This document shows positions 6,978 through 46,843 of a stretch of DNA of 64,000 bases, piece by piece. Below the pieces are notes generated by a model. The model was not told where the DNA came from. It searched no databases and was given only the letters and a program-made list of their open reading frames with translations. Every line of letters starts with the position of its first letter. Position 1 is the first letter of the stretch. The translations under genes were made by a program, and so were the position numbers. The stretch covers positions 6,820,001 through 6,884,000 of the forward strand of contig CM035359.1 in assembly GCA_020137815.1 (NCBI GenBank). The letters run 5' to 3'. Source of the DNA: Hormiphora californensis (lineage: Eukaryota > Animalia > Ctenophora).

Positions 6978-9900
6978 ATGGAGGGAAACGACTCCTCCAT
7001 TATTAATGGCAGTACTCCAGGACCTTGTGACGATGTTCCCGGGTGTGAGACCTGTTTCCGGGTCTGTTTCAACCTTACTACCAATGTAAGTAGACGTGCG
7101 ATGACTATCCCCTTTGGTGACATTGACACCTCAAACATAAATTATTATATCTGCGAATCCGTAACAGATTTCTAAACCCCTATGCCTTTTTGCGAAAGGC
7201 ATCCGGGTGAAAAATTATAATTAGAATATTGACGTTCCAATTTGAAACAATTGCATGTCTCCCCAATTTATCTTATTCATCTGCAGTGTCTAAAATGTGG
7301 CTACACATACGATGGTCTGGTCCAAACCATGGATACGATAATGGGATGTGCTATCATACCCGTCATGCTGATCACCGTGAGTTAGATATCCATTACTTTT
7401 GAATCTGTCTAACTGTCTATCCTAGGTTGTTATATAATGGAAAATGGTGATTCTCGTATTCAAAACTATATTTTTCTCACTTTCTCAGCTGTACAATATT
7501 GTTGTTTTCTAACCTTTTCTCACAGGTGATTATCAGTACCCTCTTTCTATCTATTATGTGGCGGCTACGAAAGAAACAGATCTCTTCACACGTCTTCATG
7601 GTCAGCCTCATCACTGCTGATATACTTTGTGGTAATTAATTAATTAATTAAGTTAATGGGCCTATAATGGGTTGTAAAATAAGTACATAAACTGTGTTTA
7701 CACACTAACTGCTGCAGTGGGACAGTCCATTGATCATTATCCTAAGCAGACCATGCATGGTGGCGGTACTTAACTCTCTAGCTCTCAAGGGTTAATGGGC
7801 TAGTATCAGAATATCTTAAGAATTCTGCATATTTCCTGTACATGTATTTCAGCTAAAATCTTCAGAACTAGCTAACTATATTATTTCTTGTATTTCAGCT
7901 CTATTCTGTATGCCCATCACCCTCTCAATTTTATTCAATGGTCGCCGCTTGGACAACCCTCTCTCACAGTAAGTAATCAGTTCACCATTTCCTTTTGATT
8001 TATCAAAGCTTTATTTCAAATTAATTCATAATAAAGCAATTTGATTTATAAGAAACTCTGCAAACTCGTCAACTTTTCTCCATATTTGGTGAAAGCTATT
8101 AAATGAAACCCCCATTGAAATGAAACCATTGATTTTAAATGTATCAGGTACCCCTAAATGTTCTGAGAGAGAGAGAGAGAGAGAGAGAGAGAGAGAGAGA
8201 GAGAGAGAGAGAGAGAGAGAGAGAGAGAGAGAGAGAGAGAGAGAGAGAGAGAGAGAAAAGAGATCGGAGAGAAAGAGAGAAAGGGAGTTTACATTTATAA
8301 GAGAGAAACAGCTACGTCCACGTCGTCCACGCCCCAATTATGAATTTGAATAAGTTAGTCCTCATTAAAGTACATCTTCCCTAGTAAACACGCGATTTCG
8401 GTAAGTTGCAGTTACATGAGGCATAAACTCTGGCCACTGGCGCGTTATTTCAGATAACTTTCTCCCAGCGCGCCGCTGGGAGAAGTTAGCTGGAGTTTAT
8501 CCGCCGCTGGCGGATAAACTGGTTTAAATCACGACGACGATCCCGAGGCGGAGCCGAGGGAGAGGCGGAGGGGTTTAAACCTATAACGTGCCAGTGGTCA
8601 GAGTTTATGGGTTATATACCCTGCTTTAGTTGTTTATTTCAAGTATTACACACCAACAAGAGAGAGAACACTAATAAAAACACACAAAGAGAACTGAGAA
8701 ATAGTTAAAAACACGTCACAATTGAGTGTACACTGTTTGGTAACAGTTACTAAGCAGTTGCTAAGGAAAGAGAGTGAAAGAAATAGCCTGATAAGGGGCA
8801 TGTCACAAATAACACAGAGAAAGAGATAGTGAGACAAAAGGGGAGATAAAGAGAGAGTAATTGACGGAATGTGTCCTTTCTTTCTCTCCAATGTAGTGTG
8901 TAAGTGTTGCACATAGTGTTCCCTCTGTATTTTAGTAAGAACTGATCATTTACACACACTTTGAATGTTACGTAGGAGTTAAAAATAAATAACCTGCCAG
9001 TGGGAAATAATCTGCCGCTGGACTGGCTGTTTACTGAGAGCGCGCTAGTGGGACTTCTCGCCACTGGCGCATTATTTAAGTTAGCAGGGTATATAGCTCA
9101 GTAATTGTCGGTTTACCGACACTTACAGAGCTGTAACTGCAACTTAATCGCGTGTTTTATACTAGGGTTTTGTCACAGGAGGCTCAATCCCTGTCATTGA
9201 CAGTGTCAAACGACAAACAACCCCCATCTGGATATCCCTCCAATACTACTTCCAAGCAATTTCCACTTGAATTACTACAGTGTCCTTAAACCCAATATAT
9301 ATTGCTTAACTCTCTCCAGTTACTATTACTACACCAGTGTCCTAACAGTAACCCAATATCTCCAGTTACCTCCAAGCACCCTTGATGATAACAGTACGAC
9401 AGGCGGTGATGTTCACAATCCTTGTCATGGTTATTGACAAAATGACAGCCGTATCTAAACCCCTTCACTACAAACAAATCTTTACTTATCGGACTGCCGT
9501 GGTGAGTTATTATATGACAGCTTTGAATGGCCCACTGTAAAACCTGTCTGGAGCCACGACCGCCGACCCCATATCTGAGCGCACTGTCGCCGCCAGACAG
9601 TGTCAAACAAAGACTGATACCAATGGTATTACGGAATGACCAGCTTTGGGCTATTAAACAGTAATCACGACATATTAATTGAATGGTATTACCATTGCCA
9701 AGCTGATAGTAAATCTCGATGGAGAAATATCAAACTGCAGTGAATTGTTTCAGTCAATAATAGTGGTGGTATGGATCGTGTCTTTACTGACGAATATGGT
9801 GGTTGTAGCAGACCATGCCATAGGAGGTGTCCTTGGACAGGTATAATTGATATAAATTGGGTATAAACTATTTATTAGGGTTTTAATTAGGAATAGGGTA

Positions 9901-46156: not shown

Positions 46157-46843
46157 TATGAAACCCGATAGTTGATTTATCAGTCGTTTGAACATTTTAC
46201 GCGCACACGTTAACTGCGAGATGGGGGATTTAACACCCTGCTCGCTCTTTATCAGACCAGTGCCCATTTTCACGCGTTTCTCTTCATTTCCATAACATGC
46301 GTGTAAATTTCCAAGTAATGAAAATGTGTGTAAACACACAGTTCTGTCAATAACAGAGAGGGGAACACATCTGCAACGCTTTTCAATGTTATCTCTCTCA
46401 TCAAGAGGCAAAATAGTCGCATTCCATTCGTTTCTCTCTCTCATTCTCTCTTTTACTGTTCAATATCTCTCACTGTGTGTTTTGCCCCTAATCTTTCTCT
46501 CTCTTTCTCAAACATGTTAGGAACAGTAGACACTAAGTCTACACACATTTTGAGAGTGTCTGTTGACTATTTGCCAGTAGTCCTTGTGTGTTACCCCTTG
46601 TGTTGTGTCTCTTATTTGTGTGTAATTACTATCGGGTTTCATAAACTATGAACGTTTGTTAGCCTATCGCGTTATAGGTTTAAATCACCTCCCCCTCACC
46701 CTCGGCTGGCGCCTCGGGATCGGCGTCGCGATTTAAACCAGTTTAATCGCCCTGCCGGGCGATTAAACTCCAGTTGGCTGTCCCCAGCTCGCGCTGGGAA
46801 CAGCCAACTTGATAACGCGCCAGTCTACAAACGTTCATAGTTC
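46157..46843. mobile_element. Non-coding cloverleaf element just upstream of POLE3
   Basis: Perfect 16-bp IR tatgaaacccgatagt 46157-46172 / actatcgggtttcata 46628-46643, then a cloverleaf at 46644-46842 homologous to 8422-8609. Confidence 0.75.

What the first reader, a model, noticed from the sequence alone, without database searches (positions are those of the whole stretch)
8422..46843. Family of non-coding 'IR + three-hairpin cloverleaf' elements with covarying stems
Seen: three elements (2121-2746 x2, 8422-9095, 46157-46843) share one layout despite unalignable spacers and different IR sequences. Each has a TAT-initiated 13-16 bp IR pair around a ~420-460 bp spacer, then, outside the IR on one side only, a ~170-200 bp cloverleaf of three hairpins closed by a long stem. 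Aligning 8422-8609 with the reverse complement of 46644-46842 shows conserved junctions (actggcgcgttat, ggagttta, aaactggtttaaatc, tttaaacctataacg) while stems change in compensatory pairs: agataactttctc/gagaagttagct vs agttggctgttc/ggacagccaact, and tatccgcc/ggcggata vs taatcgccc/gggcgatta. All three carry a ccctcg(g)ct..(c)g(c)ctcggga bulged motif. No terminal TIRs, TSD, tail or ORF. Inference: the folded single-stranded DNA or RNA shape is what is conserved, as expected for a substrate of a tyrosine recombinase (Crypton-like) or HUH rolling-circle enzyme, or for a structured ncRNA. I cannot assign it to a named family.
Basis: partly seen in the sequence, partly recalled or inferred. Interest (0 to 1): 0.8.

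Follow-up and report, generated by a model that had tools for sequence, protein, structure and literature searches.

The report
Cloverleaf-ended Crypton mini-transposons in comb jelly
These are real, high-copy, gene-less jumping elements in an animal genome (likely a comb jelly) whose one end folds into a cloverleaf on one DNA strand; their layout matches recombinase-carrying Crypton transposons of other marine animals, which suggests that Cryptons likely move as a folded single strand, a route known from bacteria but not shown for them.

Summary
A (2122-3373, two identical 626-nt units), B (8417-9095) and C (46157-46844) are mobile repeats. B and C are high-copy in four DNA runs, and B has a precise empty site with no target duplication. 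The cloverleaves fold at z -13 to -16; 9 of 10 stem changes between B and C are compensated; tandem G.A pairs and G..A loops mark one strand. Correction: the B and C spacers do align. No transposase lies in the window. A motif scan led to animal DNA where the same layout (TAT-started repeat, gene, inverted repeat, G.A-studded hairpin) encloses a DUF3504 tyrosine recombinase: hairpin at 4 of 11 such genes, repeat pair at 2. So these are most likely non-autonomous CryptonA-type elements (about 0.75), although their own autonomous parent was not seen. Joining the ends makes one duplex with two extra bases at the cut, like integron attC; a single-strand route is inferred (about 0.45). This scan noted hairpin-ended Cryptons before in coral and other DNA; the four-way junction and the likely ctenophore host are new here. 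Repbase and Dfam could not be checked.

The parts
2122..2747 (-). Element A, unit 1 (626 nt). Strand given = folding strand; TAT-started repeat at the left end, cloverleaf at the right end
2748..3373 (-). Element A, unit 2, identical head-to-tail copy with no extra base at the junction; 5-bp direct repeat at the outer ends
   Evidence: not checked with reads, so an assembly duplication is not excluded
2122..2137 (+). A outer inverted repeat; its partner lies at about 2555-2571 (14 of 17 match)
2572..2747 (-). A cloverleaf: closing stem plus three abutting hairpins, one with tandem G.A and a GTCA loop, one with a GAA triloop (repeated at 3198-3373)
8417..9095 (+). Element B (679 nt), high-copy family, inserted without target duplication
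   Evidence: joint 8415 to 9095 skipping 679 nt in runs X4 and X5; summed contig depth 1e4-1e6 inside against 0-1000 in unique flanks
8422..8609 (+). B cloverleaf (four-way junction), tandem G.A hairpin with GGA triloop at about 8542-8562
8613..8625 (+). B inner inverted repeat, next to the cloverleaf
   Evidence: 13 of 13
9056..9080 (+). Copy of the cloverleaf closing-stem sequence just inside the far inverted repeat of B (a similar copy in A; none significant in C); possible recombinase binding site
   Evidence: 0 of 500 shuffles as good for B, 6 of 500 for A, 110 of 500 for C
9083..9095 (+). B outer inverted repeat (element end)
8379..8416 (.). Left part of the small palindromic repeat into which B inserted (right part 9096-9167)
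   Evidence: 31 of 40 symmetric positions once B is removed
46157..46844 (-). Element C (688 nt), high-copy family related to B over most of its length
46157..46172 (+). C outer inverted repeat; partner at 46628-46643 (16 of 16), different in sequence from the B pair
46644..46842 (-). C cloverleaf, tandem G.A hairpin with GCCA loop at about 46700-46720

Best explanation
A, B and C are gene-less mobile DNA elements that insert without a target duplication and are likely non-autonomous Crypton transposons, predicted to be moved by a DUF3504-type tyrosine recombinase acting on a folded single strand. Shown: mobility and high copy number (B, C), exact ends (start TAT, end pyrimidine-A, next base T), one-sided cloverleaf, strand-specific G.A features, and the same layout around recombinase genes in other animals. 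Inferred: (1) the parent is a CryptonA-type element in the same genome (about 0.75); (2) the G.A-bearing strand leaves as, or is exposed in, a single-stranded circle in which the two inverted repeats pair and extend the cloverleaf's closing stem, leaving two extra bases at the junction; (3) the recombinase binds the repeat duplex and the closing stem, cuts at that junction and joins the strand to a T-containing target, with replication finishing the job, as for integron attC sites (about 0.45 for steps 2-3); (4) insertion at an element's own TATA-like end gives head-to-tail dimers such as A; (5) the G.A/GNA arms help the strand fold, keep single-strand binding protein off, or prime the second strand (speculative).
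For: Mobility. End rule in 3 of 3 elements. Link to the enzyme: the motif scan returned locus L036, where a DUF3504/Phage_integrase reading frame (E 1.6e-9) ends about 200 nt before a hairpin whose 21-nt core is identical to that of B. In an independent genome handle G001, reached through the protein and not the motif, L271, L272 and L273 each have a long G.A-studded hairpin on the antisense strand 290-700 nt past the gene; L271 and L273 also have a TAT-type inverted repeat pair around the gene (21 of 26 and 25 of 26) with the inner copy 141 and 153 nt from the end, and a copy of the stem sequence inside the far repeat (0 and 12 of 500 shuffles), as in B and A. A strict form of the motif occurs 78 times in 12 Mb of G001 (control 11), about 0.003 per 900 nt and strand. 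Of 28 motif hits examined there (26 distinct) 21 are followed by a TATA-like word and 13 have a repeat partner 100-990 nt away. The proteins keep the R-H-R-Y tetrad (R invariant twice, H and Y in 19 of 20) and fold like Cre. One-strand design: G.T 9 against A.C 1 and G.A 19 against T.C 2 in the window cloverleaves (6 of the 19 are the motif used to choose the strand); extra G.A 47 against T.C 11 in 15 other animal hairpins (p 2e-6). GNA and non-GNRA GNNA loops are far more stable in DNA than in RNA and occur at phage single-strand priming sites (PMC13037366, passages). End-to-start folding gives a continuous stem with a net 2 extra bases on the junction side in 3 of 3 elements. Active Cryptons rise in copy number, which simple excision does not explain (10.1101/2022.05.23.493040, passages).
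Against: No autonomous element of this host was seen: no genome is held, and the window has no recombinase; the link rests on shared anatomy with other animals. Only 4 of 11 recombinase loci have the antisense G.A hairpin within 900 nt, and one of these (L036) was picked by the motif; L137 has a decayed hairpin without the motif, L277 has it on the sense strand, L274, L275, L138, L142 have none (truncated genes or short flanks), and the hairpin beyond C628 belongs to a separate element. By a looser energy measure the contrast is modest: 4 of 7 G001 downstream blocks against 12 of 63 nearby blocks. L272 fails the automatic repeat-pair and junction tests. The motif is not specific to Cryptons: most of the 122 metagenome stretches are bacterial palindromes and one is a Rep-encoding ssDNA virus. 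The G.T bias is absent in the 15 other hairpins (27 against 32). The Crypton-linked ends are rod hairpins; only 2 of 28 G001 hits were multi-branched. Arms of palindromes can homogenise by template switching without selection (established knowledge). The only head-to-tail joint for B is one contig at depth 3.9 with one differing letter in 1 of 4 runs, among other go-back joints; none was listed for C.
Confidence: 0.6

Rival explanations
1. Crypton derivatives that recombine as ordinary double-stranded DNA (excised circle, short crossover at the target); the cloverleaf acts as an extruded cruciform, a protein-binding or replication signal, or is partly a by-product of palindrome homogenisation.
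For: Published model and clean excisions at a short target for CryptonF; Starship circles (search listing); fold closest to Cre rather than to the integron integrase (ranks 2-24 against rank 35); bacterial strand-biased elements have double-stranded nicked circles (abstract); no G.T bias in other animals.
Against: A cruciform exposes both strands, and the opposite strand would carry T.C bubbles, yet G.A sits on one strand. The inner inverted repeat lies 175-201 nt from the crossover in double-stranded DNA and reaches it only when the strand folds. Homogenisation would erase, not keep, the G.A pairs (inference).
Confidence: 0.2
2. Non-autonomous Helitron2/Helentron (HINE-like) elements moved by an HUH Rep-helicase, with an enlarged 3' hairpin.
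For: Asymmetric inverted repeats of 13-16 bp, 5' T, 3' structure, no target duplication and a head-to-tail dimer all fit rolling-circle elements (passages); the motif also lies in a Rep-encoding ssDNA virus.
Against: Inner repeat 175-201 nt from the end against 20-30 (Helitron2) or 38-60 (HINE); targets are A|T, C|T, A|T, not T|T; no HUH family in 100 ORFs scanned apart from the virus; a second family in this window has the HINE geometry and looks different. No Helitron match in G001, but that search rang in no control genome either, so it is uninformative.
Confidence: 0.1
3. A structured non-coding RNA, or a SINE/retrozyme-like element copied through RNA.
Against: No Rfam match; no tail or target duplication, sharp ends on both sides; loops GGA, GAA, GTCA, GCCA, GGCA are DNA-type rather than GNRA; in the recombinase elements the folding strand is antisense to the gene in 4 of 5 loci with the motif.
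Confidence: 0.05
4. Derivatives of another, unidentified single-strand transposase (REP/RAYT-like or Replitron-like) that shares the G.A hairpin by convergence.
For: The same core is common in bacterial GTCA-tagged palindromes with no known transposase; the four-way shape is rare among the Crypton-linked ends seen.
Against: The full layout (TAT repeat pair, one-sided structure, stem copy inside the far repeat) is shared with recombinase-encoding elements, not with the bacterial repeats.
Confidence: 0.05

Closest known systems
CryptonA DNA transposons of animals and their non-autonomous derivatives (Kojima and Jurka 2011, PMC3212892; parts 1-2 of 7, further passages and supplement 1 read)
   Same: No terminal inverted repeats at both ends, no target duplication, 350-700 bp non-autonomous families far outnumbering the parent; the layout here is shared with DUF3504 recombinase elements found.
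   Different: That paper found no terminal repeats in animal Cryptons and never uses 'secondary structure' or 'palindrom'; here there is an asymmetric repeat pair and a 175-200 nt folded end, a four-way junction rather than the rod hairpin of the cnidarian-like copies. No ctenophore is in its species table.
Eulor5/Eulor6 and salmon Crypton-N1_SSa, CryptonA-N2_SSa (Kojima 2018, PMC5753468; passages, figure not held)
   Same: Short non-autonomous Cryptons whose termini are the conserved part.
   Different: Sequences could not be compared. That these entries are self-complementary is recalled, not checked; if so, the hairpin is visible in Repbase/Dfam consensus sequences.
Helitron2 and Helentron/HINE/DINE-1 (PMC3627910, PMC4067079; passages)
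   Same: Asymmetric inverted repeats, 5' T, 3' hairpin, no target duplication, tandem copies.
   Different: 3' repeat 20-60 nt from the end with a short stem-loop, T|T target, HUH enzyme; here 175-201 nt, a cloverleaf with G.A pairs, N|T target.
Integron attC sites (PMC2727003; abstract)
   Same: Works like it, if the model is right: a tyrosine recombinase reads one folded strand; shape, unpaired bases and strand asymmetry are conserved, sequence is not.
   Different: Bacterial cassettes recombined by IntI; here the site would form only by pairing the two ends of a transposon circle. Not a member.
CGTC-tagged REP palindromes (PMC3733652; abstract and passages) and single-strand priming mini-hairpins (PMC13037366; passages)
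   Same: The same tandem-G.A, GNA-loop core turned up in bacterial repeats, phages and an ssDNA virus.
   Different: 20-40 nt stand-alone palindromes or origins without the repeat pair and 450-nt spacer.

Membership tests
CryptonA (non-autonomous) | Autonomous partner encodes only a tyrosine recombinase (DUF3504, R-H-R-Y) and shares its ends with the short element | tested here: inconclusive
   Met by anatomy in other animals (L036, L271, L273); no partner sharing B/C/A end sequence seen, no host genome held, none in the window
CryptonA (non-autonomous) | No terminal inverted repeats at both ends and no target-site duplication | tested here: met
   B empty site skips exactly the element with 1 shared letter; second repeat is subterminal
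Crypton (fungal/oomycete type) | 4-6 bp direct repeat at the ends | tested here: inconclusive
   A 5 bp, C 2 bp, B 1 bp; the feature was not found in animal Cryptons either, so it does not define CryptonA
CryptonA (non-autonomous) | Sequence match to a Repbase/Dfam Crypton consensus, or placement of the recombinase in the CryptonA clade rather than CryptonV | not testable with these tools
   No repeat library and no reference Crypton proteins available; nearest solved relative is QRICH1, a CryptonA-derived gene
Crypton | Extrachromosomal circular intermediate | tested here: inconclusive
   One low-depth head-to-tail joint for B in 1 of 4 runs; exact dimer of A; neither separates circles from genomic dimers
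Helitron2 / HINE | Asymmetric inverted repeats of 8-15 bp and 5' T | tested here: met
   13-17 bp, start T
Helitron2 / HINE | 3' repeat 20-60 nt from the end, before a short stem-loop | tested here: not met
   175-201 nt, four-way junction
Helitron2 / HINE | Insertion in TT / T-rich target | tested here: not met
   A|T, C|T, A|T
Helitron2 / HINE | Rep-helicase autonomous partner | tested here: inconclusive
   None near any animal-like hit scanned; host genome not available; uninformative
Known structured RNA family | Match to an Rfam model | tested here: not met
   0 matches at gathering score

The most novel reading that the evidence does not exclude
Animal Cryptons are eukaryotic transposons that recombine a folded single DNA strand, as integrons do: pairing of the two asymmetric repeats in a single-stranded circle builds the recombination site, and in this ctenophore lineage the end has grown into a four-way junction that mimics the Holliday junction a recombinase tetramer binds.
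Probability: 0.4. Interest if true: 0.8.

Novelty: new variant of a known kind. Interest (0 to 1): 0.6.

Why it matters
How Cryptons move is open: their ends were described as featureless in animals and the first active Cryptons gained copies in a way the excision model does not explain. These elements give exact ends, a target rule, a predicted junction with two unpaired bases and a strand choice, so the question becomes a direct in vitro test. A Cre-like enzyme that inserts a folded single strand at a bare T would also be of interest as a tool. The design also gives a structural rule for classifying many abundant 'unknown' repeats of marine animals and for telling them from HINEs.

Tried and rejected
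No whole genome is held for the window, so copy counts and the search for the parent could not be done. Protein scan of viral contigs: 28 candidates, 0 relatives. The X5 joint across C skips 750 nt, the element plus 62 nt of flank, so it is not a precise empty site. The hairpin beyond the C628 recombinase was rejected as its end. The Helitron search of G001 was uninformative. G.T strand bias did not repeat outside the window. A covariance model from two sequences does not find A. Paper searches that found no description of a folded or G.A-bearing Crypton end, or of ctenophore Cryptons; subscription journals, Repbase Reports, Repbase and Dfam are outside these searches, figures are not held, and the supplement of PMC13465315 was listed but not read.
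Full report
Setting. The window is animal DNA: a LINE with RT and endonuclease at 12943-15906, an intronless LDLa-containing receptor-like gene at 30541-33843 and a KH gene at 19031-20068. 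The only species name in the clusters of five KH relatives looked up is Mnemiopsis leidyi, in a cluster whose representative is 66% identical, so the host is likely a ctenophore. No genome is held.

The observation. All three elements exist. They fold with z-scores of -12.75 (B), -14.43 (C) and -16.10 (A), with 0 of 200 shuffles as stable. Each has a closing stem and three hairpins, and a repeat pair of 13-17 bp whose inner copy ends 175-201 nt from the element end. Between B and C, 9 of 55 pair columns change on both sides, 4 on one side and 3 are broken, and 9 of 10 changes on the 5' side are compensated (one bulge skipped by hand). An unadjusted alignment gives 7 double changes and 17 broken pairs of 84, so the count depends on a structure-aware register, and two sequences do not make a formal test. 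A is unrelated in sequence except for the motif.

They are mobile elements with exact ends. Contigs of four DNA runs of the host pile up inside B and C, at summed depths of 1e4-1e6 against tens to about a thousand in the flanks (not a copy number). For B, runs X4 and X5 hold a joint that skips exactly 679 nt with one shared letter, and X2 and X5 hold a variant in which the host sequence also resumes directly; the restored host is a small palindromic repeat, so these may be paralogous rather than allelic empty sites. For C, unrelated flanks begin before 46157 and behind 46845. Read from the outer repeat, all three start with TAT, end in pyrimidine-A and are followed by T; the letters shared with the target number 5 (A), 2 (C) and 1 (B). 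A is an exact head-to-tail dimer, not checked with reads.

One strand folds, and it looks like DNA. The 'bulged motif' is, on the other strand, a tandem G.A/G.A pair under a GGA, GCCA or GTCA loop. On that strand the window's stems hold 9 G.T against 1 A.C and 19 G.A against 2 T.C mismatches, 6 of the 19 being the motif itself. In 15 related hairpins from other animals the G.T bias is absent (27 against 32) but extra G.A outnumber T.C 47 to 11. GCGNAGC and GCGNNAGC mini-hairpins are much more stable in DNA than in RNA, bind single-strand binding protein poorly and occur at phage priming sites (PMC13037366, passages). Rfam has no match.

The enzyme. The window has no transposase. One, L036, carries a broken DUF3504/Phage_integrase gene ending about 200 nt before a hairpin whose 21-nt core equals that of B. 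Its relatives are named from corals, oysters, scallop and echinoderms, keep the R-H-R-Y tetrad (tetrad as in PMC3212892) and are modelled with a Cre-like fold, QRICH1 and Cre ranking first and the integron integrase 35th. A search with the protein alignment led to handle G001, a 12-Mb bin full of animal DNA. Of 11 recombinase loci whose 3' side I examined, 4 have a G.A-studded hairpin on the antisense strand within 900 nt (L036, picked by the motif; L271, L272, L273, not picked by it); L137 has a decayed hairpin, L277 a sense-strand one in a tandem unit, four have none with truncated genes or short flanks, and the one beyond C628 belongs to another element. L271 and L273 are complete: TAT-type repeat, gene, inverted repeat, hairpin, with a copy of the stem sequence just inside the far repeat, as in B and A; L272 fails the repeat test. 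The strict motif occurs 78 times in G001, about 0.003 per 900 nt and strand, whereas a loose energy cut-off gives 4 of 7 against 12 of 63 nearby blocks. Short elements with this layout are common there: 21 of 28 hits are followed by a TATA-like word and 13 have a repeat partner, but only 2 are multi-branched. The family call for A, B and C therefore rests on shared anatomy, not on their own parent.

How it most likely works. In double-stranded DNA the inner repeat is 175-201 nt from the cut. If the folding strand is closed into a circle, the two repeats pair and continue the closing stem of the cloverleaf, with a net two extra bases on the junction side in A, B and C. That puts a 13-16 bp duplex and the closing stem on either side of the crossover, the geometry of a tyrosine-recombinase site (11-13 bp repeats around 6-8 bp). 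I infer a route like integron attC, where only one folded strand recombines and unpaired bases set the strand (PMC2727003, abstract): one strand exchange with a T-containing target, finished by replication, which would give copy gain, no duplication, and dimers when the target is the element's own end. Active Chlamydomonas Cryptons gain copies despite clean excision (passages). Direct support is thin: one head-to-tail joint for B at depth 3.9 in 1 of 4 runs, beside other go-back joints. The autonomous L271 and L273 also fold into a continued stem but without the same two-base offset, with ends chosen by eye. A duplex-circle route remains the main rival.

Comparison with what is known. Kojima and Jurka 2011 found no terminal repeats in animal Cryptons (supplement 1 lists none); a 2026 CryptonA paper has no occurrence of 'hairpin' or 'palindrom' (passages). 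Helitron2 and HINE share the asymmetric repeats but have them 20-60 nt from the end with a T|T target (passages); a second family in this window shows that geometry and serves as a contrast. Eight searches found no description of a folded Crypton end or of ctenophore Cryptons; Repbase and Dfam were out of reach, and I recall, unchecked, that Eulor5/6 consensus sequences are self-complementary. Other papers seen: PMC5753468, PMC8869645, PMC3733652 (passages), PMC10214605 (abstract), Replitrons and Starship circles (search listings only). After reaching this reading I found four earlier unchecked notes of this scan with the same idea on coral and other DNA; none matched B by sequence and none mentions a ctenophore. 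They are not independent support.

Verdict. Real, mobile, probably non-autonomous CryptonA-type elements: a new variant of a known kind. The four-way junction end, the exact end rule and the predicted junction make an open mechanistic question testable. Interest 0.6.

Noticed in passing
window 38305-38852 (-), 40405-40951 (-), 52251-52885 (+): A second multi-copy family of about 540-630 nt with Helitron2/HINE geometry: T-run and 5' repeat that pairs around two small hairpins (one with a GAA triloop), 3' repeat followed after 5 nt by an 8-bp hairpin and the end about 40 nt later. Ends not verified.
   Followed up: partly
window 8379-8416 and 9096-9167: Small palindromic repeat that hosts B; other copies lack B.
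   Followed up: partly
window 46079-46875: Run X5 has a contig that skips 750 nt, element C plus 62 nt of flank, next to a POLE3-like exon at 46965 (name recalled from the translation); possibly an imprecise loss of C.
   Followed up: no
window 4601-5863, 48828-49596, 51061-51443, 61478-61860, 62326-62659, 29066-29893: Several elements with long inverted repeats of 120-370 nt, probably MITEs.
   Followed up: no
window 30541-33843, 19031-20068, 12943-17146, 43246-44574: Intronless 1100-aa LDLa receptor-like gene, intronless KH gene, an apparently intact two-ORF LINE and a second RT fragment.
   Followed up: partly
L020:1090-1150: A 2.3-kb Rep-encoding ssDNA virus contig has the same tandem-G.A hairpin beside its origin stem-loop; one phage contig has it twice (L008, L011).
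   Followed up: no
L016-L136 (most loci): A very common bacterial palindrome starting GTCATCCCGAG carries the identical G.A/GNA core; it resembles CGTC-tagged REPs, for which no transposase is known.
   Followed up: partly
   Followed up: partly
L118:225-370: Three adjacent hairpins, two with tandem G.A, followed by a TAT-type repeat: possibly a branched end in another animal.
   Followed up: no
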